Positions 1 to 36,141 of a stretch of 64,000 nucleotides of DNA are shown piece after piece; the stretch's first letter is position 1, and each line of letters begins with the position of its first letter. Both the position numbers and the translations under genes were made by a program. Under the pieces are notes generated by a model. The model was given only the letters and a program-made list of their open reading frames with translations, was not told the DNA's origin and did not search any database. The DNA is from Verrucomicrobiia bacterium (lineage in GTDB: Bacteria; Verrucomicrobiota; Verrucomicrobiia; Limisphaerales; UBA11358): NCBI GenBank assembly GCA_036502245.1, contig DASXYX010000028.1:96637-160636 (forward strand). The letters run 5' to 3'.

Positions 1-375
1 GCCCACAAGGCAGTCCGCCGTCCTTCCAGGACGGAATCATTTTTTGGGCATTACCAGCCACGTTGTGGCTGGCTACATTCCGGTCGTCGCTTCGCGACTC
101 ACGGCGCGCAACGGAGTGCGTCCAAGAGACTAACAGGAGATAACGGAGGGGAACATTCAACATTCAACGCCCAACGTCGAAGGGTGAGAAGTCCCGCCCA
201 CAGTCCACAGTCATTAATCAGGGACTCGTGGAACTCGTCCCTCCGAGAAAAGCGGCGCGCAACGGACCAGCCTTCGCCAAGGCTACGGCGCGGCAGGCGC
301 TCGCCCCACCAAACAGCAAGTCCCGAGTCCACAGTCCACGGTCATTAATCAGGGCTCGACGGAGTCTCGCCCCAC
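1..375. repeat. Mosaic of short REP-like hairpins and direct repeats in intergenic DNA
   Basis: Hairpins CCGTCCT-TCC-AGGACGG (18-34) and CCAGCCAC-GTT-GTGGCTGG (54-72). A ~40-bp direct repeat at 189-228 / 318-358 (..CACAGTCCACRGTCATTAATCAGGG..). GGGACTCG..CTCGTCCC unit at 221-241 recurs at 19508 and 20113. AACATTCAACATTCAAC (152-168) is related to the 7-mer array at 31133. GGCTCGACGGAGTCTCGCC (353-371) is the inverse of 31061-31079. ORFs here are repeat-derived. Confidence 0.6.
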
Positions 376-449
376 CGCCATGTACTCATTTTTGATGACG
401 GGCAGGAAGTTTTTCATGGTTGTTTGTAGAATTGTCCATGTAATTAAAA

Positions 450-2831
450 TTGAAATATGCCGCGCCATTTCAGACCGTATACCATTCAAAGTTGCCATTA
501 CGCATGAAGAAGCAAGCTGTCGCCGCGACCCCGGCTTACAAGAATCGGAATCTGCCCGCTGAGAAGCGCGTTCGCGATCTGCTTTCCCGCATGTCCCTGG
601 AGGAAAAAGCCGCGCAGATGATGTGTGTGTGGCAGGAAAAAAGCGCCAAACTCCTCGATGCGGCAGGGAATTTCGACGCGGCAAAGGCGAAGGCCAGTTT
701 CAAGAAGGGCCACGGCATCGGGCAAGTCGGCAGGCCGAGCGACGCGGGCGCGCCGGCCACGGAACCGTGGCGCGGTAAAACGGCGCGCGGCATGGCCGAG
801 CTGACCAACGCCATCCAGAAATTTTTCATCGAACATTCGCGGCTGGGCATCCCGGTTTTTTTCCACGAGGAATGCCTGCACGGCCATGCGGCGCATGAGG
901 GCACGAGTTTTCCCCAGCCGATCGGCCTGGGCGCGACGTTCAATCCGGACCTGATCGAAAAATTATACACGATGACGGCGGAGGAGACGCGCACGCGCGG
1001 CGGGCACCAGGCGTTGACGCCGGTGGTGGACGTGGCGCGCGACCCGCGCTGGGGACGCGTAGAGGAAACCTACGGCGAAGACCCGTACCTGGTCTCGCGC
1101 CTGGGCATCGCGGCGGTCCGCGGCTTCCAGGGCGACGCGCAGTTCAAGAACAAGAACCGCGTGATCGCGACGTTGAAACATTTTGCGGCGCACGGCCAGC
1201 CGGAGTCGGGCATGAACTGCGCGCCGGTGAACGTGTCTGAGCGCGTCCTGCGCGAGACGTTCCTGTTCACCTTCAAGGAAGCCATCCAAAAAGCGGGCGC
1301 GATCAGCGTGATGGCGAGCTACAATGAGATCGACGGCGTGCCGTCCCATGCGAGCACGTGGCTTTTGCGCGACGTGCTGCGCAAGGAATGGGCGTTCAAA
1401 GGTTTCGTGGTCTCGGATTATTATTCCATCTGGGAGCTGAACAATCGCCCGGACACACACGGCCATTTTGTGGCGGCGGACAAAGCCGAAGCGTGTGCGC
1501 TCTCGGTGAAAGCAGGTGTGAATATCGAGTTCCCCGAGCCGGACTGCTACCTGCACCTCGTGGAACTGATCCGCAAGAAGGTACTGAAGGAATCGGAATT
1601 GGATGATCTGGTCGCGCCGATGTTGCTGTGGAAATTCAAGATGGGCCTGTTCGATGATCCGTACGTGGACCCGAACGTGGCGGCACGCGTCGTGGGCAGC
1701 GAGGCGAACCGCAAGTTGGCCCGCCAGGCCGCGCGCGAAACCATCACGCTCCTAAAAAACGACGGTAACCTCGCGCCGCTGGACCTGAATAAATTTAAGA
1801 CCATCGCCGTCGTCGGCCCGAATGCGAACCGCAGTTTGCTGGGCGGTTACAGCGGCGCGCCGAAGCATGACGTGACGGTGCTCGAAGGCATCAAGGCCCG
1901 GGTGGGCAATCGCGCCAAAGTCGTTTACAGCGAGGGCTGCAAGATCACCAGGGCCGGTTCGTGGCAGCAGGACGAAGTCCTGGCGAGCGATCCCGTGGAG
2001 GACCGCAAGCAGATCGCCGAAGCGTTTGAAGTGGCCCACGATGCGGATGTCATCGTCATGGCCATCGGCGGCAACGAGCAGACGTCGCGCGAGGCGTGGA
2101 ACCTGAAGCACATGGGCGACCGCACGAGCCTGGACCTGATCGGGCGGCAGGATGAATTGGTGGCGGCGATGCTGGCGACCGGCAAACCGGTGGTCGTGCT
2201 GCTGTTCAACGGGCGTCCGCTCTCCATCAACGAGGTCGCCAAGAATGTCCCGACGATTTTCGAATGCTGGTACCTGGGCCAGGAATGCGGCCATGCGGTG
2301 GCGGACGTGTTGTTCGGCGATTTCAATCCGGGCGGCAAGCTCCCTATCACCATCCCCCGCTCCGCCGGGCATCTGCCGGCGTTCTACAATTACAAGCCGT
2401 CGGCGCGGCGCGGTTATCTGTTCGCGGATGTCACGCCGTTGTTCCCCTTCGGCTACGGCTTGAGCTACACGACTTTCAATCTCAAAAATGTTCGGCTGAA
2501 AAATAAAAAGATCCGCGCGAACGGTTCCACGCAGGCGCTGGTGGAGGTCACGAACACCGGCAAACGCGCAGGCACCGAGACCGTGCAGATGTATATCCGC
2601 GACCTGGCCAGTTCGGTGACGCGGCCGATCAAGGAATTGAAAGGGTTTGCGAAGATCGAATTGCGGCCGGGCGAGACCAAAACCGTGGCGCTGGACATCA
2701 CGCCCGAATCGCTCGCGTTCTACGACATCAATATGAAGTACGTCGTGGAGCCAGGCGGGTTCGAGATCATGGTGGGCAATTCGTCGCGCGATGAAGATTT
2801 GCAGAAAGTCGTTTTGACCGTCACCCAATAA
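450..2831 (+). CDS. Glycoside hydrolase family 3 beta-glucosidase/beta-xylosidase (BglX-like)
   Basis: 793-aa ORF (alternative start ATG 504). GH3 hallmarks: SLEEKAAQM, KHFAAHG, GFVVSDY nucleophile region, C-terminal Fn3-like beta-sandwich. First gene of a co-directional sugar operon. Confidence 0.93.
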   Translation: MKYAAPFQTVYHSKLPLRMKKQAVAATPAYKNRNLPAEKRVRDLLSRMSLEEKAAQMMCVWQEKSAKLLDAAGNFDAAKAKASFKKGHGIGQVGRPSDAGAPATEPWRGKTARGMAELTNAIQKFFIEHSRLGIPVFFHEECLHGHAAHEGTSFPQPIGLGATFNPDLIEKLYTMTAEETRTRGGHQALTPVVDVARDPRWGRVEETYGEDPYLVSRLGIAAVRGFQGDAQFKNKNRVIATLKHFAAHGQPESGMNCAPVNVSERVLRETFLFTFKEAIQKAGAISVMASYNEIDGVPSHASTWLLRDVLRKEWAFKGFVVSDYYSIWELNNRPDTHGHFVAADKAEACALSVKAGVNIEFPEPDCYLHLVELIRKKVLKESELDDLVAPMLLWKFKMGLFDDPYVDPNVAARVVGSEANRKLARQAARETITLLKNDGNLAPLDLNKFKTIAVVGPNANRSLLGGYSGAPKHDVTVLEGIKARVGNRAKVVYSEGCKITRAGSWQQDEVLASDPVEDRKQIAEAFEVAHDADVIVMAIGGNEQTSREAWNLKHMGDRTSLDLIGRQDELVAAMLATGKPVVVLLFNGRPLSINEVAKNVPTIFECWYLGQECGHAVADVLFGDFNPGGKLPITIPRSAGHLPAFYNYKPSARRGYLFADVTPLFPFGYGLSYTTFNLKNVRLKNKKIRANGSTQALVEVTNTGKRAGTETVQMYIRDLASSVTRPIKELKGFAKIELRPGETKTVALDITPESLAFYDINMKYVVEPGGFEIMVGNSSRDEDLQKVVLTVTQ

Positions 2832-8224: not shown

Positions 8225-10933
8225 ATGAGACTGATCTATTACACTGCCATCGGACTATTTTGTCTGCTCTCAAACGTCGCCGCGTTGGCCGATGAGACCT
8301 GCGTCTCGTGCGATAAACAGATCACCGTCACCGGCCAGTTCCAGCACCGGCGCGCGTTCGGCGTGGCGACCATCCAGGGCGAGCTTTCGCGCTGGGGCGA
8401 TGCGTTCCGCGAGGAGATTTACGGCACGAACTTCACCATCACCATCGCCAACCTGCCGGCGGGAAGTTATACGGCATACATCGGATTTGCGGAAGTGGAT
8501 TACACCAACACGGGTGACCGCGTGTTCGACATCACGGGCAATGGCCAACCCATCGCCACCAATTTTGACATCGTCGCCGCGGCAGGTGGTTCGGGCAAAG
8601 TGTATTTCATCACTAACCAAATTGATTTTGCAGGAGAATCAATCGGCGGACCGATGACGTTCAATTTTGCGGGCCGCGTTGGCGACGCCAAAATGAATTC
8701 GTTCGAGCTGCGCGATGCCAGCAAGCAATCGATTGTGTTTATCCGCGCGGCGGATCTGCTGGACGTCGGCGACAAAGCCGCGCTGGCGCCGCCCGTGGTG
8801 AACGGGCCGGAGATATGGAAAGACCCGGCGCAGCCCGTTGACGCGCGCGTGCAGGACCTGATCAGCCGCATGTCGCTCGCCGAAAAAGTGCAGCAGATGC
8901 GCAATAATGCCCCGTCCATCCCGCGACTTGGCGTGCCGGCTTACAATTATTGGAGCGAATGCCTGCACGGCGTGGCGCGTTCGGGCGTGGCCACGGTGTT
9001 TCCCCAGGCCATCGGCATGGCCGCTACGTGGGACACCCCGCTCATCCATCAGGAGGCGCATGTCATTGCCGTGGAAGCGCGCGCGAAGAACAATGATTAT
9101 CGCGCCAAACACGACGGCAATACTGTCCAGTACTACGGCCTGCATTTCTGGACGCCGAACATCAACATTTTCCGCGACCCGCGTTGGGGCCGCGGCCAGG
9201 AAACCTACGGTGAAGATCCGTTCCTGACCGGGCAACTGGGCGTCTCGTTCATCCAGGGTTTGCAAGGCGACGACCCGAAATATCTCGAAGCCTACGCGTG
9301 CGCGAAACATTACGCCGTCCACAGCGGACCGGAACCGCTCCGTCATGAATTTGATGTCTCTCCGCCTGAGCGCGATCTTTACGAGACCTACCTGCCCCAG
9401 TTCGAAGCGGCGGTGCGCGAAGGCCATGTCGGCGGCGTGATGGGAGCCTACAATGCGGTCGAAGGCAAACCCGCCTGCGCGAGTCCGTTTTTGCTGACCG
9501 ACCTATTGCGCAATCAATGGGGATTTGACGGTTACGTCACTTCCGATTGCGGCGCGATCTTCGATATCTGGGCTAATCATAAATTTGTCAACTCACCCGA
9601 AGAAGCCGCCGCCGTGGCAGTGAAGGCGGGCGACGACCTTTGCTGCGGCACGGATTACGATGCGCTGGCGCGCGCCGTACAGGAAGGCCTCATCACGCAA
9701 CAGGAGATCGATACCGCCCTTGCGTGGTTGCTCAAGACGCGCTTCCGCCTCGGCATGTTCGACCCACCCTCAATGGTTCCTTACGACCAGATTCCGGCAT
9801 CGGAGAATAATACGCCCGCGCACCAGGAACTGGCGCTACAGGTCGCGCGGGAATCGATGGTCTTGCTAAAAAACAATGGCCTGTTGCCGCTCAACCGCAA
9901 CAAAATCAAACGCATCGCTGTCATCGGCATCAATGCCGATTCCACGAACGTGTTGCTCGGCAATTACAACGGCACGCCGTCAAACCCGATCAGAATTCTC
10001 GATGGCATTCGCGCCGTCGCCGGTGTAGACGTCCAGGTGGATTATGTGCGCGGCTGTCCTTTGGCCACGCATACCAATGAGACCTATCAGCCGGACGACG
10101 ATTTCACCAATGCCGTCAACGCTGCCGCTCAAGCCGACGTAGTCATTTATGTGGGCGGCATTGACGCCCATCTGGAAGGCGAAGAGATGCGTGTTTATCT
10201 GGACGGATTTAACGGCGGTGACCGCACGCGCATCGAATTGCCCACGTCACAGGAAACGCTGTTGAAAGCGTTGCAGGCGACCGGCAAACCGGTGGTCTAT
10301 GTCAATTGCAGCGGCAGCGCCATGGCCATGCCGTGGGAAAAGAAATTTCTTCCCGCCATTTTGCAAGCGTGGTATCCCGGCGAGGAAGGCGGACGCGCCG
10401 TGGCCGAGACCTTGTTCGGCGATTACAATCCTGCCGGACGTTTGCCGGTAACATTTTACCAGTCCACTGCCGATCTGCCGGATTTTGAAAACTATTCCAT
10501 GAGCAACCGCACCTACCGTTATTTCACCGGCAAACCGCTCTTCGCCTTCGGCCATGGATTGAGCTATACGAAGTTCGCTTATCGCCATGCCAAGTTGGCG
10601 GACAAAACAATCAGCTCAAACGGCACACTCACGGTAACGTTTGACGTCAAGAATACTGGCAACCGCGACGGTGATGAAGTGGCGCAAGTTTATTTCCGCC
10701 ATGTGAATTCTGCCGTGCCGCAACCCCTGGAGGCGCTATGCGGCTTCCAACGCGTCCACCTGGCCGCTGGCCAAAGCCAGACGGTCACCAACGAAATCCC
10801 CGTCGAACGATTCCGTTATTGGGACACAACGAAACAACAATACGTTGTTGAGCCGGGCAAATACCAGTTGCTCGTGGGAGCAGCGTCCGATGATATCCGG
10901 GAACGGTTGGCGTTTAGTGTGGCAGGGCAATGA
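8225..10933 (+). CDS. Exported GH3 beta-xylosidase/beta-glucosidase with N-terminal malectin-like carbohydrate-binding domain
   Basis: Hydrophobic N-terminus (MRLIYYTAIGLFCLL). Malectin-like segment YTAYIGFAEVDYTNTGDRVFDITGNG...FDIVAAAGG. Then a GH3 core (SLAEKVQQM, KHYAVHSGPE, GYVTSDC) and an Fn3-like C-terminus. Confidence 0.9.
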   Translation: MRLIYYTAIGLFCLLSNVAALADETCVSCDKQITVTGQFQHRRAFGVATIQGELSRWGDAFREEIYGTNFTITIANLPAGSYTAYIGFAEVDYTNTGDRVFDITGNGQPIATNFDIVAAAGGSGKVYFITNQIDFAGESIGGPMTFNFAGRVGDAKMNSFELRDASKQSIVFIRAADLLDVGDKAALAPPVVNGPEIWKDPAQPVDARVQDLISRMSLAEKVQQMRNNAPSIPRLGVPAYNYWSECLHGVARSGVATVFPQAIGMAATWDTPLIHQEAHVIAVEARAKNNDYRAKHDGNTVQYYGLHFWTPNINIFRDPRWGRGQETYGEDPFLTGQLGVSFIQGLQGDDPKYLEAYACAKHYAVHSGPEPLRHEFDVSPPERDLYETYLPQFEAAVREGHVGGVMGAYNAVEGKPACASPFLLTDLLRNQWGFDGYVTSDCGAIFDIWANHKFVNSPEEAAAVAVKAGDDLCCGTDYDALARAVQEGLITQQEIDTALAWLLKTRFRLGMFDPPSMVPYDQIPASENNTPAHQELALQVARESMVLLKNNGLLPLNRNKIKRIAVIGINADSTNVLLGNYNGTPSNPIRILDGIRAVAGVDVQVDYVRGCPLATHTNETYQPDDDFTNAVNAAAQADVVIYVGGIDAHLEGEEMRVYLDGFNGGDRTRIELPTSQETLLKALQATGKPVVYVNCSGSAMAMPWEKKFLPAILQAWYPGEEGGRAVAETLFGDYNPAGRLPVTFYQSTADLPDFENYSMSNRTYRYFTGKPLFAFGHGLSYTKFAYRHAKLADKTISSNGTLTVTFDVKNTGNRDGDEVAQVYFRHVNSAVPQPLEALCGFQRVHLAAGQSQTVTNEIPVERFRYWDTTKQQYVVEPGKYQLLVGAASDDIRERLAFSVAGQ

Positions 10934-10934
10934 T

Positions 10935-11032
10935 CCAACCCTTTCAGGGTCGAAAATCATGCGGACAATTAACCCAGCGTAGGCGCGAGCGCCAACGCTG
11001 GGCTATATGATTTCAACCCCGTTGGGGTTGAA
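10935..11032. repeat. REP cluster (trailer-type module, solo copy)
   Basis: Three hairpins: CCAACCC-TTTCAG-GGTCG (degenerate), CCCAGCGT-N14-ACGCTGGG, TCAACCCC-GTT-GGGGTTGA. The same module occurs at 11672-11768 and 24362-24460. Confidence 0.75.
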
Positions 11033-11106
11033 AGGCGACTTTAACCAAAACTTCTACTTAATTTCCAAATACTCAAACATGAAGTAGCGAAACGTATTAA
11101 ACCTTT

Positions 11107-11206
11107 GGCAATCCCAAAGGGATTGCAATAATATAGCCCGGCGTTGCGAGGAACGAGCTACGCCGGGTTACGTCCAAAGCAAATATTCAACCCTGAAAGG
11201 GTTGAA
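11107..11206 (+). repeat. Structured ~100-bp leader of RAYT copy 1 (three hairpins)
   Basis: GCAATCCC-AAA-GGGATTGC; CCCGGCGT-N15-ACGCCGGG; TTCAACCC-TGAAA-GGGTTGAA. Near-identical copies at 23798-23897 and 24528-24627. Confidence 0.75.
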
Positions 11207-11215
11207 TCAAAGTTT

Positions 11216-11671
11216 ATGCCGCAGTCCTTATCAAATATTTTGGTGCATGCCGTATTTTCCACCAAAGATCGGCGTCCGTTTATCCGGGATAAAGGCTTAC
11301 GCGGTGAATTGCACAAATACATCGGCGGCATTTTGAATCATCTCGATTGTTATCCACTCATCGTTAGCGGTGTTGAAGATCACGTGCATCTGCTCTCCAC
11401 CCTCTCCCGTACTTGTGAACCGGCAGAAATGGTCAAAGAGGTCAAACGTGGCTCATCGTTATGGATTAAGCAAAGGGATGTAAAGCTGCAGGATTTTGCA
11501 TGGCAAAGTGGTTACGGGATCTTTTCCATCGGGGTTTCCCAAATTGAACCAGTCAGTAATTATATTGCGGGGCAGGAAGAACATCACCGGACAGTTTCAT
11601 TTCAGGATGAATTGCGGAAATTATTGCGCGAACACAAAATCGAATTTGATGAACGGTATGTCTGGGACTGA
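11216..11671 (+). CDS. rayT: REP-associated tyrosine transposase (RAYT; IS200/IS605-like Y1/HUH transposase fold), copy 1
   Basis: 151 aa from ATG 11216. HUH motif (DHVHLL) and YIAGQEEHH catalytic-Tyr motif. No tnpB partner. Flanked by REP hairpins. The longer ORF-track start at 11144 runs through the repeat leader. Confidence 0.9.
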   Translation: MPQSLSNILVHAVFSTKDRRPFIRDKGLRGELHKYIGGILNHLDCYPLIVSGVEDHVHLLSTLSRTCEPAEMVKEVKRGSSLWIKQRDVKLQDFAWQSGYGIFSIGVSQIEPVSNYIAGQEEHHRTVSFQDELRKLLREHKIEFDERYVWD

Positions 11672-11768
11672 TTCAACCCTTTCAGGGTTGAATTTATTCG
11701 CAACCTGAACCCAGCGTAGGCGCAAACGCCAACGCTGGGCTTTATTATTTCAACCCCGTTGGGGTTGA
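11672..11768. repeat. REP cluster (trailer of RAYT copy 1)
   Basis: TTCAACCC-TTTCAG-GGTTGAA; CCCAGCGT-N14-ACGCTGGG; TCAACCCC-GTT-GGGGTTGA. Confidence 0.75.
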
Positions 11769-11790
11769 CGACCGTCCGTTTCACAATTTA

Positions 11791-13129: not shown

Positions 13130-13510
13130 CTGAATCCTGAAAGGATTCCCATCATTCAGCCCAGCGTAGGCTCGCAGACTCGCCAACGCTGGGTTTGGTG
13201 GAGAAAAAGATCAACCCCAACGGGGTTGTATCGCCAATGGGCACGAATGGATTCAACCCTTTCAGAGACCTCTGCAAAAGGGGTAGCGCAGGTTTCCTAA
13301 CCTGCTGTATCGCCGACTTCCAAGTCGGCAGAGCGTGGAAACATTGGGAAACCAGCGGATTGGGAAATCCGCGATACAAGTCTGCGCTACAATAAGGTGT
13401 TTTGCAGAGGTTTCTTTCAGGGTTGAATTCATGGCGTCATCACCCCAGGGCAGCTCGTTCCTCGCAACCTTTGGGCTGAATGATTCAATCCCGTTGGGAT
13501 TGCTGAACAG
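13130..13510. repeat. Composite REP cluster (BIME-like) including a nested insertion
   Basis: Degenerate trailer module at 13130-13240 (CCCAGCGT..ACGCTGGG; TCAACCCC-AAC-GGGGTTG). Split TTCAACCC/GGGTTGAA REP at 13251-13430. Inverted degenerate RAYT-leader copy at 13440-13505 (..GCTCGTTCCTCGCAAC..CAATCCC-GTT-GGGATTG). Confidence 0.7.
13266..13414. mobile_element. 149-bp non-coding foldback (MITE-like) element inserted in the loop of a REP hairpin
   Basis: 12-bp perfect terminal inverted repeats ACCTCTGCAAAA (13268-13279) / TTTTGCAGAGGT (13400-13411). Flanking TTTCAG duplicated at 13260-13265 and 13415-13420. Inner stem GTAGCGCAG / CTGCGCTAC plus three internal hairpins. Confidence 0.6.
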
Positions 13511-16080: not shown

Positions 16081-16155
16081 AGGCGCTTAGCGCAGCGGTA
16101 GCGCAGCAGCTTTACACGCTGTTGGTCGGGGGTTCGAATCCCTCAGCGCCTACCA
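16081..16155 (+). tRNA. tRNA-Val (anticodon TAC), CCA encoded
   Basis: Manual cloverleaf: acceptor AGGCGCT/AGCGCCT; D arm GCGC-AGCGGTA-GCGC; anticodon arm GCAGC-TTTACAC-GCTGT; variable TGGTC; T arm GGGGG-TTCGAAT-CCCTC; then A-CCA. Confidence 0.93.
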
Positions 16156-17759: not shown

Positions 17760-18230
17760 CTAAATTTCACCGGCCAATTCCAAAGTTTGTTGAATCAATG
17801 CTTTACTAAAGTAGAAACCAGATTCTTGAAATTTATTCACAGCAGGACGAACGGCGGAAATCAATCGATGCTCTTTCAAAATGAGCAGCACTCTTAACGA
17901 GCCGATCAATTGCAAATCAAATTCCTCCGCGCAACGCCGCGCCTTCAAATCGTCTAAAATGGCCTTGCAGTCACGATTGGCTATAACCCAGGACAAAACT
18001 TGCGTTTCCCCCAACCCCAAATCCCATGACAAGAGAATTGGCGGGGTGGGGACGGGCTGGACAATGAACTTTGCGCCTTCGTTTTCGAGCCACGCGCACC
18101 CGGCATCGCGCGTTTTTGCGCGGCGAACTTCTTCGACCACGCCGGATGGAATGATGAGTTGCCCACAGATTTGAGGGACAAATTGAATAACGCCTGCCTT
18201 TGCCAGCAGCACAACGGGCGAGGCATTCAT
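17760..18230 (-). CDS. DUF3368-type PIN-like protein, putative type II toxin
   Basis: ASPVVLLAKAGVIQFV...IIPSGVVEEV pattern typical of DUF3368. Immediately downstream of a UPF0175 gene. An alternative start at 18248 would overlap the antitoxin stop. Confidence 0.8.
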   Translation of the reverse strand: MNASPVVLLAKAGVIQFVPQICGQLIIPSGVVEEVRRAKTRDAGCAWLENEGAKFIVQPVPTPPILLSWDLGLGETQVLSWVIANRDCKAILDDLKARRCAEEFDLQLIGSLRVLLILKEHRLISAVRPAVNKFQESGFYFSKALIQQTLELAGEI

Positions 18231-18240
18231 TACCCATCGC

Positions 18241-18498
18241 TCACCCACGCCGGCATTCCTCCACGAGTTCTTCCGGTGTCATCTGAATCGGTGAAACTTT
18301 ATGACGGCCTAAAACGTCGAAAAATTCCCCGCGCGATAACCCGAGTAATTCCGCTGCCTTGCCTTGTGAGACAAGCCCCTCATCAAACCATTTCACCACA
18401 GCAGTCTCATACATCGCTCGCGCAAAACGGGCGTCATCTTTGTCACCAAATAGCCTGATGGCATCTTCCGGTACTTCGACTGTCACTTGTTTGCTCAT
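18241..18498 (-). CDS. UPF0175-family putative antitoxin
   Basis: 85 aa. ..GLVSQGKAAELLGLSRGEFFDVLGRHKVSP.. HTH-like segment characteristic of UPF0175. Paired with DUF3368. Confidence 0.8.
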   Translation of the reverse strand: MSKQVTVEVPEDAIRLFGDKDDARFARAMYETAVVKWFDEGLVSQGKAAELLGLSRGEFFDVLGRHKVSPIQMTPEELVEECRRG

Positions 18499-23792: not shown

Positions 23793-23797
23793 GTTTT

Positions 23798-23897
23798 GGC
23801 AATCCCAAAGGGATTGCAATAATATAGCCCGGCGTTGCGAGGAACGAGCTACGCCGGGTCACGTCCAAAGCAAATATTCAACCCTGAAAGGGTTGAA
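23798..23897 (+). repeat. Structured leader of RAYT copy 2
   Basis: Same three hairpins as 11107-11206, with single-base differences. Confidence 0.75.
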
Positions 23898-23906
23898 TCA
23901 AAGTTT

Positions 23907-24362
23907 ATGCCGCAGTCCTTATCAAACATTTTGGTGCATGCCGTATTTTCCACCAAAGATCGGCGTCCATTTATCCGGGATAAAAGCTTACGCGATGAAT
24001 TGCACAAATACATCGGCGGCATTTTGAACCATCTCAATTGTTATCCACTCATCGTCGGAGGTGTTGAGGATCATGTGCATCTGCTCTCCACCCTTTCCCG
24101 AACCTGTGAACCGGCTGAAATGGTGAAAGAAGTCAAACGCGGATCATCGTTATGGATCAAGCAAAAGGATTTAAACCTGCAGGATTTTGCATGGCAGAGT
24201 GGCTATGGAATCTTTTCCCTCGGAGTTTCCCAAATCGAACCAGTCAGTAATTATATTGCAGGGCAGGAAGAACATCACCGGACAGTTTCATTCCAGGACG
24301 AATTGCGGAAATTATTGCGCGAACATAAAATCGAATTTGATGAACGGTATGTATGGGACTGA
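23907..24362 (+). CDS. rayT: REP-associated tyrosine transposase (RAYT), copy 2
   Basis: 151 aa. 8 amino-acid differences from copy 1 by manual alignment (G27S, G30D, D44N, S51G, R87K, V89L, K90N, I105L). Same HUH and Y motifs. Confidence 0.9.
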   Translation: MPQSLSNILVHAVFSTKDRRPFIRDKSLRDELHKYIGGILNHLNCYPLIVGGVEDHVHLLSTLSRTCEPAEMVKEVKRGSSLWIKQKDLNLQDFAWQSGYGIFSLGVSQIEPVSNYIAGQEEHHRTVSFQDELRKLLREHKIEFDERYVWD

Positions 24363-24460
24363 TTCAACCCTTTCAGGGTTGAATTCGTTTGGAACCTGAA
24401 CCCAGCGTAGGCGAGAACGCCAACGCTGGGCTATATGATTTCAACCCCGTTGGGGTTGAA
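24362..24460. repeat. REP cluster (trailer of RAYT copy 2)
   Basis: TTCAACCC-TTTCAG-GGTTGAA; CCCAGCGT-N14-ACGCTGGG; TCAACCCC-GTT-GGGGTTGA. Confidence 0.75.
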
Positions 24461-24527
24461 GGCCAATTACGTTAGTGCTCCCCCATTATATTATTTCGTC
24501 AAGACTTGAAGATTCAGAAATGTTTTT

Positions 24528-24627
24528 GGCAATCCCAAAGGGATTGCAATAATATAGCCCGGCGTTGCGAGGAACGAGCTACGCCGGGTCATGTCCAAAC
24601 CAAATCTTCAACCCTGAAAGGGTTGAA
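24528..24627 (+). repeat. Solo RAYT leader (third copy, no transposase gene behind it)
   Basis: GGCAATCCCAAAGGGATTGC..CCCGGCGT..ACGCCGGG..TTCAACCCTGAAAGGGTTGAA, followed directly by the 3' end of the convergent gene at 24660. Confidence 0.7.
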
Positions 24628-24659
24628 TCAATTTCATCAACAACAGCAAACCTCCCCTA

Positions 24660-31240: not shown

Positions 31241-31582
31241 ATGTCGGCAATACAGGACACTATTCTCATGTCGAAAACCAGCTCGATTCCGCTGCCTGCC
31301 GCCCATGCGCTTCGCAAGTTGGGCCGCGACCTCGCGCTCGCGCGGCGCAAACGCGGCATCTCCACGAGCGACATGGCGGCCCGTCTTTTTGTCAGCCGCG
31401 ATACGCTCTGGCGTCTGGAGCGCGGTGATCCAACGGTGGCCCTCGGCACTTTGGTGACGGCGACATTCGTTCTCGGGCTGCATGACCGGCTGGCAAACCT
31501 CGCGTCACCCGCCAGCGATGAACTTGCTCTGGGCCTTGATGAACGCCGCCTGCCGCAACGCATCCGCCGCCCCCGCTTATGA
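31241..31582 (+). CDS. hipB: XRE-family HTH antitoxin (HipB-like)
   Basis: 113 aa. HTH ..RRKRGISTSDMAARLFVSRDTLWRLERGD... ATGA overlap with hipA. Confidence 0.8.
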   Translation: MSAIQDTILMSKTSSIPLPAAHALRKLGRDLALARRKRGISTSDMAARLFVSRDTLWRLERGDPTVALGTLVTATFVLGLHDRLANLASPASDELALGLDERRLPQRIRRPRL

Positions 31583-32808
31583 GCCTGGAAGTCCACATTG
31601 ATTGGCGGGGGCAGACCCATCTGGTGGGGCGGCTCCATGCGGCTGAACGGGGTTCGTCAGTTTCATTTGAATATGTGACTGAATGGCTCCAGCGTGCTGA
31701 CGCCTTCGCCATTGACCCGACATCCCTTCCGCTACAACGTGGGGCGCATCATGGCGGGGTGCTCTTTGGAGCGATTCACGATTGCGGGCCTGACCGCTGG
31801 GGCCGGGTTCTCATTGAGCGCGCAGTTCGCAAGAAAGTTCTGGCGCAAAAACCGTATCACGACCTTCACTATGTGCTGGCATTGGACGATGCGTCGCGCA
31901 TCGGGGCTTTGCGTTTCCGGCTTGACCCCCAAAGCCCGTTTCTCGCCGCCACGACTGGAAAACTCCCGCCTTTGGTCCGCCTCAACGCTCTGCTTCGGGC
32001 AACGGACGCCATTCACAGCGAAACTGAAACCGCCCAGGATTTGCGGTTTCTGCTTGGCGCCGGGTCGCCGCTCGGCGGGGCGCGCCCCAAGTCTGCGGTC
32101 AGTCTGGCGGATGAACGACTCGCCCTCGCGAAGTTTCCCAAACCGGATGACACGCGGGATATTGCGGCAGGTGAAATTCTCGCGCTTACCCTTGCAGAGC
32201 AGGCGGGCATTCAGGTTGCGGAACATCGGCTCGTGCCGGTCGGCGGACACAATGTGGCAGTCATCACCCGATTTGATCGTGCGGGCAAAAACCGCATTCC
32301 CTTCATTTCCGCATCGAGCCTGCTGGGACTGTCCCAGGGCGACCCTGGCGCTTACACGTTGCTGGCCGACGGCATCCGTCGCTTCGGCAACGATGTCCCC
32401 GGTGACCTTCGCGAGTTGTGGCGGCGACTCGTTTTTTCGCTCCTTGCCGGCAATTACGATGACCACCTCCGCAATCATGGTTTTTTGATGCACGAACCCG
32501 GACGCTGGTCGCTTTCACCTGCCTACGACATCAATCCCGTGCCGGAAATGGATCGTGTCCGCATGAGCAAAACCGCCATCACTGAAGACCAGCAGGAACC
32601 GGCCATCTCCAGCGCGCTTGCGGCCGCGCCGCGCTTTGGTCTCAAGGCAGCCGATTCGAAGAAAATTCTCCGCGAGGTTTTCACGCCGGTTTCCGGCTGG
32701 CGCAAAACCGGGCGTCAACTTCGCCTCAAAGCATCCACTTTGGACGCCTACGCCAGCGCCTTCGAGCATCCACTCATGGATGAAACCAGGCAACTCCTTG
32801 GCAAATAG
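31579..32808 (+). CDS. hipA: HipA-family serine/threonine kinase toxin
   Basis: 409 aa. HipA N-terminal coupling region (VGRL..FEY) and C-terminal kinase core (GGARPK; NYDDHLRNHGFL; SPAYDINP). Confidence 0.9.
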   Translation: MSLEVHIDWRGQTHLVGRLHAAERGSSVSFEYVTEWLQRADAFAIDPTSLPLQRGAHHGGVLFGAIHDCGPDRWGRVLIERAVRKKVLAQKPYHDLHYVLALDDASRIGALRFRLDPQSPFLAATTGKLPPLVRLNALLRATDAIHSETETAQDLRFLLGAGSPLGGARPKSAVSLADERLALAKFPKPDDTRDIAAGEILALTLAEQAGIQVAEHRLVPVGGHNVAVITRFDRAGKNRIPFISASSLLGLSQGDPGAYTLLADGIRRFGNDVPGDLRELWRRLVFSLLAGNYDDHLRNHGFLMHEPGRWSLSPAYDINPVPEMDRVRMSKTAITEDQQEPAISSALAAAPRFGLKAADSKKILREVFTPVSGWRKTGRQLRLKASTLDAYASAFEHPLMDETRQLLGK

Positions 32809-35514: not shown

Positions 35515-36141
35515 TCACCAGTCCTTGATGACTTGATTTTGCGGCGGTTGCTGATTTCCCTTTGGCCCCATTTGCAGATATTGCTCGTTTTCCTTTTGCG
35601 CGTCCAATAATCGCTTGGCGTCTTCCGCCGACATCATGTTCGCCTGCTGTTGATTCTGATCAGCCTGCTGCGCCTGCTGGCCTTTTTGTTGTTGGTTCTG
35701 CTTCGCCTGATTTGGTTGATTCTGCTGCTTTTGACCCTGCTGTTGTTGATTTTTTTGGTTTTGCGACTGGTTCTGCTGGTTCTGTTGCGATTGCTGATTC
35801 TGTGATTGTTGCTGTTGGGACTGGTTCTGCTGAGATTGATTCTGTTGCGATTTATTTTGCTGGCTCTGCTGGCTCTGGTTTTGATTCTGCTGATTTTGCT
35901 GGTTCTGTTGATTCTGTTGGCTTTGGGACTGCTGCTGTTGCTTGAGTAATTGCTCCAGCTTTTTCAATTTGTCGTCGTCGGGGTAGAGCTTCAAGCCCTT
36001 CTCCGTCCTGTCCAGTGCCGCGGGGACGTTGTTGGAAATATAAAGCCGCGCGCCGCCGTTGAAATAATCGTCAGCGGTCTGCGCGTCCGCGGCCATGGAG
36101 GCCAACAGGAGATTAAGGCTGATGAGGTGTCGAAATGTCAT
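35515..36141 (-). CDS. BatC-like exported TPR protein with long Gln/Asn-rich low-complexity region
   Basis: Signal peptide (..LLLASMAADAQT), one TPR-like unit, then about 100 residues of Q/N/S repeats. Last gene of the Bat operon; overlaps the batB end by 29 nt. Confidence 0.65.
   Translation of the reverse strand: MTFRHLISLNLLLASMAADAQTADDYFNGGARLYISNNVPAALDRTEKGLKLYPDDDKLKKLEQLLKQQQQSQSQQNQQNQQNQQNQNQSQQSQQNKSQQNQSQQNQSQQQQSQNQQSQQNQQNQSQNQKNQQQQGQKQQNQPNQAKQNQQQKGQQAQQADQNQQQANMMSAEDAKRLLDAQKENEQYLQMGPKGNQQPPQNQVIKDW

What the first reader, a model, noticed from the sequence alone, without database searches (positions are those of the whole stretch)
11107..11768. Two near-identical RAYT units with identical structured leader and trailer, 12.7 kb apart
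RAYT copy 1 (11216-11671) and copy 2 (23907-24362) differ at only 8 of 151 residues by my manual alignment. Each has the same ~100-bp three-hairpin leader and the same ~100-bp three-hairpin trailer, so the whole ~660-bp unit is duplicated (11107-11768 vs 23798-24460). There is no tnpB. RAYTs are generally described as single-copy, domesticated genes that mobilise REPs. A recently duplicated complete unit therefore suggests that the RAYT gene itself, with its REP flanks, is or recently was mobile in this genome.
Basis: partly seen in the sequence, partly recalled or inferred. Interest (0 to 1): 0.55.

Follow-up and report, generated by a model that had tools for sequence, protein, structure and literature searches.

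The report
Hairpin-flanked IS200-like element, two copies
Two copies of a very small jumping gene, a single-strand-DNA transposase bracketed by ~100-base triple-hairpin inverted repeats, sit at two places that are empty in the closest sampled relatives of this Verrucomicrobial genome. The same hairpin modules also spread without the gene, so the element looks like a natural intermediate between classic IS200 insertion sequences and 'domesticated' REP/RAYT systems.

Summary
Units 11104-11770 and 23795-24461 each carry a 151-aa Y1/HUH transposase gene (143/151 aa identical) between the same three-hairpin leader (L) and trailer (T). There is no tnpB. The duplication is not recent: the CDS is 92.3% identical, with dS 0.33 and dN/dS 0.07. 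Only the leader is 99% identical.

The 'RAYT' label comes from a COG name. The protein passes NCBIfam's IS200 model, fails the REP-tyrosine-transposase model, and carries the TnpAY1 subclass 1.2 motifs (DHVH, WQ, Y-x3-Q-x2-HH).

T is the reverse-complement homologue of L. Each module holds an invariant GTAG, and covariation across 98 modules supports the three hairpins.

The L-gene-T unit recurs in many Verrucomicrobial contigs. Gene-less L-T doublets, with a spacer of about 22-24 nt, outnumber it, and one doublet keeps remnants of the gene.

Syntenic contigs of the closest relatives lack both units and all modules, and an outgroup polarises site 2 as a gain.

Best reading: an autonomous IS200-like element with REPtron-like inverted ends and REPIN/MITE-like derivatives. 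The mobility inference is supported. The premises 'recent' and 'RAYT' are not.

The parts
10935..11032 (-). Solo trailer-type (T) three-hairpin module. It directly abuts, and partly replaces, the 3' end of the GH3 gene.
   Evidence: nhmmer module profile, 68.7 bits, E 2.8e-19. Hairpin motif hits. 82-85% identical to the two unit trailers. Absent from relatives.
11033..11104 (.). AT-rich 72-bp spacer between the solo T and the leader of unit 1.
   Evidence: Sequence. Not significantly similar to the spacer at site 2: 521 of 2000 shuffles score as high.
11105..11206 (+). Leader (L) module of unit 1. H1 is at 11106-11128, H2 at 11135-11169 (CTAC here, i.e. GTAG on the other strand) and H3 at 11186-11206. 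A sigma-70-like site, TTGGCA-16-AATAAT, lies at 11105-11132.
   Evidence: DNA fold -29.9 kcal/mol, z -6.5. nhmmer 85.5 bits. Promoter-like match of 10/12 with an upstream TG.
11216..11671 (+). Y1/HUH transposase gene, copy 1 (151 aa). Motifs: HUH = D54-H55-V56-H57, W96-Q97, Y116-x3-Q120-x2-H123-H124.
   Evidence: Pfam Y1_Tnp E 3.8e-22. NCBIfam transpos_IS200 57 bits against a cut-off of 55. Motifs invariant in the family. NCBI HEY3761106.1, 'IS200/IS605 family transposase'.
11672..11770 (-). Trailer (T) module of unit 1. H3' is at 11672-11692 and starts right after the TGA stop. H2' is at 11710-11739 and carries GTAG. H1' is at 11748-11768.
   Evidence: DNA fold -32.7 kcal/mol, z -8.3. Reverse-complement homologue of L with compensatory stem changes. 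nhmmer 69.3 bits.
13130..13506 (.). Gene-less L-T doublet of a different subfamily. M3 is at 13130-13229. M4 is at 13251-13266 plus 13415-13506. The first hairpin of M4 is split by a nested 148-bp insertion (13267-13414) with terminal inverted repeats ACCTCTGCAAAA/TTTTGCAGAGGT.
   Evidence: Sequence. nhmmer hits of 50.3 and 60.5 bits. The region is about 445 bp longer than in relatives.
23796..23897 (+). Leader (L) module of unit 2. It starts 4 nt after the stop codon of the upstream gene.
   Evidence: nhmmer 85.0 bits. 101/102 identical to the L of unit 1.
23907..24362 (+). Y1/HUH transposase gene, copy 2 (151 aa).
   Evidence: Pfam Y1_Tnp E 1.9e-22. 143/151 aa identical to copy 1. dN/dS 0.073. 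NCBI HEY3761119.1.
24363..24461 (-). Trailer (T) module of unit 2.
   Evidence: nhmmer 73.6 bits. 90/99 identical to the T of unit 1 by gapped alignment, with the hairpin stems unchanged.
24462..24627 (+). 64-bp spacer followed by a solo leader-type (L) module at 24526-24627.
   Evidence: nhmmer 86.8 bits. 96-97% identical to the two unit leaders. The whole block 23793-24659 replaces 4-20 bp in relatives.

Best explanation
Each ~667-bp unit is an autonomous, IS200-like single-gene transposable element. It encodes a Y1/HUH single-strand-DNA transposase (TnpAY1 subclass 1.2 type). It is bounded by ~100-nt imperfect inverted repeats (L and T).

On a single strand each repeat folds into three hairpins. 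The middle hairpin (H2) carries an invariant GTAG at the foot of its inner stem, like a canonical REP.

Shown here:
1. The gene is intact and under strong purifying selection, and its catalytic HUH and Tyr motifs are conserved.
2. The three hairpins are maintained by compensatory changes.
3. The L-gene-T unit occupies two sites that are empty in the closest sampled relatives, with similarity ending exactly at the outer hairpins.
4. The same ends occur far more often as gene-less L-T doublets and solo modules. At least one doublet is an internal-deletion derivative of a gene-bearing unit.

Inferred, not shown:
- The transposase binds the GTAG-bearing hairpin on single-stranded DNA, for example the lagging-strand template. 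It cleaves and rejoins at the module borders, without target duplication. In this way it moves both the full unit and, in trans, the doublets (MITE/REPIN-like parasites).
- The leader hairpins and a promoter-like site may also limit and drive tnpA expression, as in IS200.
- The 99%-identical leaders, against 92% for the rest, are best explained by later gene conversion among L modules.
For: Protein:
- Pfam Y1_Tnp and NCBIfam transpos_IS200 above its cut-off.
- A family profile hits IS608, ISDra2 and other solved IS200/IS605-type TnpA chains at E 4.5e-5 to 7e-3.
- HUH, WQ, Y116 and HH are invariant, and all 32 full-length family copies are intact.
- dN/dS is 0.073 between the two copies.

Ends:
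- L is homologous to the reverse complement of T, with compensatory stem changes.
- On 98 modules, 92.2% of cells pair, 14 pairs show double changes and 0 of 500 shuffles reach the observed value. Slid controls pair at 26-48%.
- GTAG is invariant or nearly so in every position across the modules.

Mobility:
- Relatives with ManC 94-97% identical keep synteny but have only 4-20 bp where the window has an 867-bp insert at site 2. At site 1 they carry an unrelated repeat.
- There are 0 modules in about 62 kb of relatives against 8 in the window.
- The outgroup L142 also lacks site 2.
- Divergence between the two copies (third-position p 0.18, dS 0.33) is lower than host divergence from the nearest relative (third-position p 0.25-0.31, dS 0.47-0.73).

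Family:
- 9 of 15 genome loci and 30 of 120 metagenome loci picked by a hairpin motif carry a homologue (mostly 60-76% aa identity), nearly always next to the motif.
- All nine genome-locus copies and most of the 32 full-length copies show the same L/T architecture.
- The census finds 25 L-gene-T units and 64 L-T doublets.
- The L098/L110 doublet keeps ATG plus 6 codons fused to the end of the gene.
- Co-resident copies at 81-98% nucleotide identity occur in other contigs.
Against: - There is no direct evidence of excision, circles or current activity. dS of 0.33 shows the duplication is old.
- The ends are symmetric inverted repeats. Characterised IS200/IS605 elements use two asymmetric ends on one strand, so the IS608 'peel-and-paste' geometry cannot simply be transferred.
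- No target motif or target duplication could be defined. The nearest relatives are 10-17% diverged, so junctions cannot be resolved to the base.
- Very strong purifying selection on both copies would also fit a host-useful (domesticated) gene.
- The near-identity of the leaders shows that recombination between modules occurs, which opens a passive route for copying the gene.
- Genome-wide copy number in the source organism could not be obtained.
Confidence: 0.6

Rival explanations
1. Passive copying in a RAYT-like, domesticated system. Only the short gene-less modules or doublets are mobilised. The second gene copy arose when a resident L-T doublet was 'filled in' by homologous recombination or gene conversion from the first unit, using the ~100-bp L and T as homology arms, or by another recombination between dispersed modules.
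For: - Doublets outnumber gene-bearing units 64 to 25.
- Modules cluster next to units.
- The leader plus the first 26 nt of the CDS is 99% identical while the rest is 92% (Fisher p 0.004). This looks like a conversion tract.
- dN/dS of 0.07 fits a gene kept for a host or system function.
- The literature holds that REPtrons do not self-propagate (PMC3733652; preprint 10.1101/2021.07.10.451892).
Against: - The relatives lack doublets or any module at both sites. A two-step history is therefore needed at each site.
- The complete L-gene-T unit is the recurrent form in many different contexts and genomes.
- The protein groups with IS200-type transposases rather than class 2 RAYTs.
Confidence: 0.2
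2. Ancient paralogues. Both units were present in the common ancestor and were precisely lost in the relatives, so nothing has moved in this lineage.
For: - dS of 0.33 shows the copies are not young.
- Site 1 is covered only by the sister clade (L138, L140/L141), so its polarity is not fixed by parsimony.
Against: - Site 2 is empty in both the sister clade and the outgroup L142. Loss would need two independent excisions that leave only 4-20 bp between two stop codons.
- Divergence between the copies is smaller than host divergence from the nearest relative, so at most one copy can predate the split.
- All 8 modules are missing from the relatives.
Confidence: 0.07
3. Two independent horizontal acquisitions of related elements, rather than an intragenomic copy.
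For: The family is very large and widespread in Verrucomicrobial metagenomes: 7994 of the 8000 scored candidates had E<=0.001. Incoming copies are therefore plausible.
Against: - The two proteins are 95% identical to each other but at most 78% identical to anything else among about 5.8 billion clustered proteins.
- They share the unusually short 10-nt leader between H3 and ATG.
- They lie 12.7 kb apart.
Confidence: 0.05
4. Assembly artefact: a repeat collapsed or was duplicated in the metagenome contig.
For: The source is a metagenome-assembled contig.
Against: - The copies differ at 45 positions and have different flanks.
- The 12.7 kb between them is syntenic with three independent assemblies of relatives.
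Confidence: 0.01

Closest known systems
IS200 (IS200 subgroup of the IS200/IS605 family; TnpAY1 subclass 1.1)
   Same: - About 0.7 kb, with a single ~150-aa Y1/HUH transposase gene and no tnpB.
- Highly structured left end and 5' leader.
- Multi-copy, with no evident target duplication.
- The protein passes NCBIfam transpos_IS200 and aligns to IS608 TnpA with HUH and Tyr in register (PMC4513863).
   Different: - The ends are ~100-nt inverted repeats of three hairpins. They are not two asymmetric ends recognised on one strand.
- Signature residues are WQ and Y-x3-Q-x2-HH, instead of W[TS] and Y[IV]ENQ.
- There is an invariant GTAG in the ends.
- Gene-less doublets of the ends outnumber the gene-bearing units in the loci sampled.
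REPtron / RAYT-REPIN systems (E. coli TnpAREP; Pseudomonas RAYTs; TnpAY1 class 2)
   Same: - A Y1 gene flanked by inverted, GTAG-tagged palindromes.
- The same palindromes are dispersed without the gene, typically as inverted doublets with a short spacer (REPIN-like).
- They cluster in intergenic space between convergent genes.
   Different: - The protein lacks the class 2 Y-x3-NP motif and scores 16-17 bits against a cut-off of 80 on REP_Tyr_transpos.
- The gene sits inside the doublet.
- The unit itself shows presence/absence differences and repeated duplication.
- The repeat is a 100-nt three-hairpin composite, not a 20-40-nt REP.
TnpAY1 subclass 1.2 (Quentin et al. 2018, PMC6006769), which I suspect but did not show corresponds to 'IS200 Group 3' of Bertels et al. 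2017
   Same: - DH[IV]H, WQ and Y-x3-Q-x2-HH motifs.
- About 150 aa, with a conserved ~30-aa C-terminal tail.
   Different: - The subclass was described as low-copy, without IS properties and without REPs, and as mainly cyanobacterial and Bacteroidetes.
- Here the carriers are Verrucomicrobia, the gene has GTAG-hairpin ends, and it shows insertion differences and gene-less derivatives.
TIRtron / TIRYT (Di Nocera et al. 2013, PMC3733652)
   Same: A Y1 transposase gene bracketed by long terminal inverted repeats. In some genomes these repeats form repeat families, organised as dimers or clusters.
   Different: - According to Quentin et al., TIRYTs are mostly subclass 2.1 proteins of about 240 aa with C-terminal HTH domains and GGGGWSAS-type TIRs unrelated to REPs.
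- Here the protein has 151 aa and the TIRs are built from GTAG hairpins.
MITEs derived from insertion sequences by internal deletion
   Same: L-T doublets of about 225 bp keep both ends and lose the gene. One doublet retains the start and the end of the ORF.
   Different: The ends are hairpin modules for a single-strand Y1 enzyme, not the binding sites of a DDE transposase. No target duplication is seen.

Membership tests
IS200/IS605 family (IS200 type) | Encodes a Y1/HUH transposase (Pfam PF01797) with a HUH motif and a catalytic Tyr. | tested here: met
   E 3.8e-22 and 1.9e-22. HUH and Y116 align with IS608 TnpA. Both motifs are invariant in the family.
IS200/IS605 family (IS200 type) | Reaches the curated cut-off of NCBIfam NF033573 transpos_IS200. 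| tested here: met
   57 and 58 bits against a cut-off of 55, so only marginally above it.
IS200/IS605 family (IS200 type) | Subclass 1.1 signature residues W[TS] and Y[IV]ENQ. | tested here: not met
   The protein has WQ and YIAGQEEHH.
IS200/IS605 family (IS200 type) | Asymmetric left and right ends with subterminal hairpins read on one strand, and no terminal inverted repeats. | tested here: not met
   The trailer is the reverse complement of the leader (79/94 identical). This holds across the family.
IS200/IS605 family (IS200 type) | Behaves as an IS: several copies, and presence/absence differences between related genomes. | tested here: met
   Two copies. Both sites are empty in relatives, and an outgroup polarises site 2. 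Co-resident copies occur in other contigs.
IS200/IS605 family (IS200 type) | Inserts 3' of a specific tetra- or pentanucleotide, without target duplication. | tested here: inconclusive
   No duplication and no consensus across about 90 element junctions. The relatives are too diverged to fix the junctions.
IS200/IS605 family (IS200 type) | Transposes through single-stranded excision and integration. | not testable with these tools
   Needs biochemistry or read-level data.
RAYT / REPtron (TnpAREP, class 2) | Class 2 Y motif Y-x3-NP, and a match to NCBIfam NF047646 REP_Tyr_transpos. | tested here: not met
   The motif is YIAGQ. Scores are 16.4 and 17.1 bits against a cut-off of 80. No chain named as a REP-associated transposase was listed at E<=10 in the profile search of solved structures.
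RAYT / REPtron (TnpAREP, class 2) | Gene flanked by inverted GT[AG]G-tagged palindromes that also occur dispersed without the gene. | tested here: met
RAYT / REPtron (TnpAREP, class 2) | Single copy, at the same position in related genomes, with no self-mobility. | tested here: not met
   Two copies, both absent from syntenic relatives.
TnpAY1 subclass 1.2 (Quentin 2018) | Motifs DH[IV]H, WQ and Y-x3-Q-x2-HH, about 148 aa, with a conserved C-terminal tail. | tested here: met
   DHVH, W96-Q97, Y116IAGQEEHH124 and 151 aa. The tail, ending in ERYVWD, is conserved.
TnpAY1 subclass 1.2 (Quentin 2018) | Low copy number, no IS-type ends and no associated REPs, as the subclass was described. | tested here: not met
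   Structured ends, gene-less derivatives and insertion differences are all present.
TnpAY1 subclass 1.2 (Quentin 2018) | Assignment with the authors' own subclass HMMs or tree. | not testable with these tools
   The models are not available here. Assignment rests on the published motifs.
REP / REPIN | GT[AG]G at the 5' foot of a hairpin. | tested here: met
   The GTAG positions are invariant or nearly invariant in 98 modules, at the foot of the inner stem of H2.
REP / REPIN | Two inverted copies separated by a short spacer. | tested here: met
   64 L-T doublets, with spacers mostly 21-25 nt.
REP / REPIN | Short unit of 20-40 nt (REP) or about 100 bp (REPIN). | tested here: not met
   The module is about 100 nt with three hairpins, and the doublet is about 225 bp.
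REP / REPIN | Tens to hundreds of copies per genome. | not testable with these tools
The window holds 8 modules in 64 kb.

The most novel reading that the evidence does not exclude
This Verrucomicrobial family may be a living intermediate between IS200 and REPIN-RAYT systems. It would be a self-mobile 'REPtron' whose two GTAG-hairpin ends, once the gene is deleted, become REPIN-like doublets that then outnumber the gene.

On this reading, TnpAY1 subclass 1.2 is the transposase of a widespread, still mobile, REP-generating element. That subclass was published as non-IS and REP-less.

The strand-symmetric three-hairpin ends would then imply a transposition geometry different from IS608.
Probability: 0.35. 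Interest if true: 0.6.

Novelty: new variant of a known kind. Interest (0 to 1): 0.45.

Why it matters
How REPs and REPINs arise, and how Y1 transposases move them, is still unsettled. The current model holds that the palindromic ends of an IS200-like ancestor fused into REPINs that exploit the transposase (preprint 10.1101/2021.07.10.451892).

This family shows all the proposed stages side by side in extant genomes:
- the gene-bearing unit with insertion differences between related genomes
- an internal-deletion derivative that still holds gene remnants
- abundant gene-less doublets

It also corrects the published picture of subclass 1.2 as lacking IS properties and REPs. The 151-aa protein and the defined 100-nt ends make a compact system for in-vitro cleavage and binding tests.

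For annotation, it shows that the JGI/COG label 'RayT' should not be read as 'domesticated, single-copy'.

Tried and rejected
1. Genome-wide census in the source organism. The window comes from a 190,664-bp JGI metagenome contig. A hairpin scan of the GTDB genome collection returned only other species. Copy number in this genome therefore remains unknown.

2. Circular-permutation idea. Site 1 reads T-sp-L-gene-T and site 2 reads L-gene-T-sp-L, as if one circle had integrated through T or through L. The two spacers are not significantly similar: 521 of 2000 shuffles score as high, and the reverse complement is only about 2.4 sd above the mean. I dropped this.

3. Target site or target duplication. 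I aligned about 90 outer junctions and found no consensus and no duplication.

4. AlphaFold2 model from 42 close homologues. Mean pLDDT was 45.5. That is too poor for a fold search, so I did not use it.

5. Rfam. Nothing matched the modules; the only hit in the window was a tRNA.

6. Phage vector. There were only 7 hits in 2.9 million viral contigs, one of them with a partial gene. This gives no support for phage carriage.

7. tnpB. None was called within +/-10 kb of either copy.

8. 'RAYT' as a family assignment. I rejected it on NCBIfam scores and the Y motif.
Full report
OBSERVATION

The two ORFs, 11216-11671 and 23907-24362, encode 151-aa proteins that are 143/151 identical. Both match Pfam Y1_Tnp.

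Nucleotide similarity begins at 11104/23795 and ends at 11770/24461. These are the outer feet of the first and last hairpins. The sequence outside is unrelated.

Leader and trailer each fold as single-stranded DNA into three hairpins, with z-scores of -5.9 to -8.3. The hairpin motifs have essentially zero chance expectation in the window. No tnpB-like gene lies within 10 kb of either copy.

Identity is uneven across the unit:
- leader: 1 mismatch in 112 nt
- CDS: 35 in 456
- trailer: 9 in 98

For the CDS, dS is 0.334, dN is 0.024 and dN/dS is 0.073. The duplication is therefore old, both copies are under strong purifying selection, and 'recently duplicated' is an overstatement.

SOURCE

The window is part of a 190,664-bp JGI metagenome contig from a Verrucomicrobiae MAG. 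NCBI annotates both genes as 'IS200/IS605 family transposase' (HEY3761106.1 and HEY3761119.1). JGI's name 'RayT' is, to my knowledge, the COG1943 label.

WHAT THE PROTEIN IS

- NCBIfam scores are 57-58 bits on transpos_IS200 (cut-off 55). They are only 16-17 bits on REP_Tyr_transpos (cut-off 80).
- A profile of the family hits the solved IS200/IS605-type TnpA chains (IS608, ISDra2 and others) at E 4.5e-5 to 7e-3. No chain named as a REP-associated transposase was listed at E<=10.
- The motifs are DHVH, WQ and Y116-IAG-Q-EE-HH, with a conserved C-terminal tail. They are invariant in the family.
- They match TnpAY1 subclass 1.2 of Quentin et al. 2018. That subclass was described as close to IS200 but without IS properties or REPs, low in copy number, and mainly found in Cyanobacteria and Bacteroidetes.
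- The class 2 (RAYT) motif Y-x3-NP is absent.

WHAT THE FLANKS ARE

The trailer is the reverse-complement homologue of the leader, with compensatory changes in the stems. The unit therefore has ~100-nt imperfect terminal inverted repeats, each made of hairpins H1, H2 and H3.

Across 98 modules from the window and from other contigs:
- 92.2% of cells pair.
- 14 of 28 pairs show changes on both sides.
- No shuffle out of 500 reaches the observed values, and slid controls fall to 26-48% paired.
- H2 carries a GTAG whose positions are invariant or nearly so, at the foot of its inner stem. This is a REP-like core clamped by an outer stem.

Rfam has no matching family. In this genome the leader contains a sigma-70-like site, TTGGCA-16-AATAAT. 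That is only a consensus match.

FAMILY-WIDE PICTURE

- A scan for the H3 hairpin in one genome per species found 15 loci in Verrucomicrobial MAGs. Nine of them carry a homologue (60-74% aa identity) right next to the hairpin, and all nine show the same L and T architecture.
Thirty of these carry a homologue.
- With an nhmmer profile of the module I mapped 292 modules in 136 sequences.
- These comprise 25 L-gene-T units, 64 gene-less L-T doublets, 10 T-L neighbours and 83 other modules.
- The doublet spacer is mostly 21-25 nt, beginning with TCA and ending with TGA.
- In L098/L110 the doublet spacer still holds ATG plus six codons fused to the end of the gene. It is an internal-deletion derivative.
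- Co-resident gene copies at 81-98% nucleotide identity occur in other contigs. Paired copies are therefore a family trait.
- No target motif or target duplication is visible at about 90 junctions.

THE WINDOW

The window holds eight modules:
- solo T at 10935-11032
- L and T of unit 1
- a gene-less doublet at 13130-13506, whose first T hairpin is split by a nested 148-bp element with its own inverted repeats
- L and T of unit 2
- solo L at 24526-24627

Both units lie between convergent genes and point the same way as the upstream gene.

EMPTY-SITE TEST

Homologues of the ManC gene that lies between the two units (94-97% aa identity) led to syntenic contigs from other samples.

- Site 2: the relatives have only 4-20 bp between the two convergent stop codons. 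The window has an 867-bp insert there (L-gene-T-spacer-L plus about 30 bp).
- Site 1: the relatives have about 125-170 bp with an unrelated palindromic repeat. The window has T-spacer-L-gene-T, and its GH3 gene is shortened at the 3' end.
- The relatives' contigs, about 62 kb in all, contain no module and no homologue.
- Pairwise distances give ((L138,L140),window) with L142 as outgroup. Site 2 is empty in the sister clade and in the outgroup, so a gain in the window's lineage is the parsimonious reading.
- Divergence between the two copies (third-position p 0.18, dS 0.33) is below host divergence from the nearest relative (0.25-0.31; dS 0.47-0.73).

INTERPRETATION

The best reading (confidence 0.6) is an autonomous IS200-like element with REPtron-like inverted GTAG-hairpin ends. 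Its Y1 transposase moves the full unit and, in trans, the gene-less doublets.

Shown here are the intact, constrained enzyme, the structurally constrained ends, the insertion differences at exact module borders, and the deletion derivatives.

Inferred are the single-stranded substrate, the cleavage sites, the use of GTAG, and regulation by the leader hairpins. The last point is by analogy with IS200, which is 707 bp, has one ORF, and carries a terminator and an SD-sequestering hairpin in its left end (PMC4513863).

The 99%-identical leaders are nearly the same even in the H2-H3 linker, which varies across the family. This points to later gene conversion among L modules.

The same recombination underlies the main rival (0.2): doublets are the only truly mobile form, and the gene was copied passively into a doublet. 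Ancestral presence followed by loss (0.07), independent acquisition (0.05) and assembly artefact (0.01) are much less likely.

COMPARISON WITH WHAT IS KNOWN

- Multiple REPtrons per genome, and GTAG repeats in the Verrucomicrobium O. terrae, have been reported. [quoted passage not shown]
- Bertels et al. found that 66% of IS200 genes but only 0.8-6% of RAYT group members have a >=95% identical copy. They also noted an odd 'IS200 Group 3' with abundant flanking 16-mers and no duplicates (PMC5581495).
- The present element fails defining features of canonical IS200 (asymmetric ends, subclass 1.1 residues). It also fails defining features of canonical RAYTs (Y-x3-NP, single copy).
- It fits the motifs of subclass 1.2 but not its published behaviour. 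I therefore rate it a new variant of a known kind.

Limits: there is no genome-wide count for the source organism, no strain-level comparison, no experiment, and the structure model was unusable.

Noticed in passing
window 13130-13506: A third element lies in the same 13.5-kb stretch. It is a gene-less L-T doublet of a different module subfamily. The first T hairpin (TTCAACCCTTTCAG|GGTTGAA) is split by a nested 148-bp insertion at 13267-13414. The insertion has terminal inverted repeats ACCTCTGCAAAA/TTTTGCAGAGGT, a possible TTTCAG duplication, and an internal GTAGCGCAGG...CTGCGCTAC palindrome. No other copy of the insert occurs in the window or in the fetched loci.
   Followed up: partly
window 13160-13193; L058:4217-4325: In module M3 the core of H2 (the GTAG side) is inverted relative to the outer parts of the module. 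In L058 two tandem units share a fused 'double-foot' H2 (GTAG...CTAC). This suggests flip or inversion and fusion events at the hairpins.
   Followed up: no
window 10925-10954: The solo trailer begins inside what is the 3' end of the GH3/malectin gene in relatives. The gene in the window ends about 7 codons earlier, at a TGA that abuts the hairpin.
   Followed up: partly
window 17760-18498 (- strand): A UPF0175/DUF3368 gene pair, probably toxin-antitoxin, sits between trpA and manC. In three relatives trpA and manC overlap by 4 nt and the pair is absent. This is another lineage-specific insertion.
   Followed up: partly
L140:14436-14560 and L138:14405-14530 (relatives, site 1): The relatives carry a different palindromic repeat in this intergenic space (gaacgggctaccagcccgttgcggtcggcaacttgccgaccagc...gtagtagccggcgtgagccggct), including a GTAG-plus-hairpin unit. 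The spot appears to be a repeat hot spot.
   Followed up: no
L131: trailer of the unit whose gene is at 280-735 (- strand): An 18-nt piece of the trailer's first hairpin (TTTCAGGGTTGATGAATG) is repeated about five times in tandem, which looks like slippage within a module.
   Followed up: no
window 35515-36141 (- strand): A 208-aa ORF with a long Q/N/S-rich low-complexity core (QQNQQNQSQ...). It is the cause of the CTG/TTG-rich imperfect repeats at 35650-35949.
   Followed up: no
window 16081-16155 (+) and 31241-32808 (+): A tRNA-Val(TAC) lies between the glycosyltransferase and manC genes. An HTH_31/HipA-like gene pair lies further downstream.
   Followed up: no
L143-L149 (IMG/VR contigs): The H2 motif occurs in only 7 viral contigs. 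L143 has three modules and L144 has a partial transposase homologue at the contig end. These may be host flanks of prophages.
   Followed up: partly
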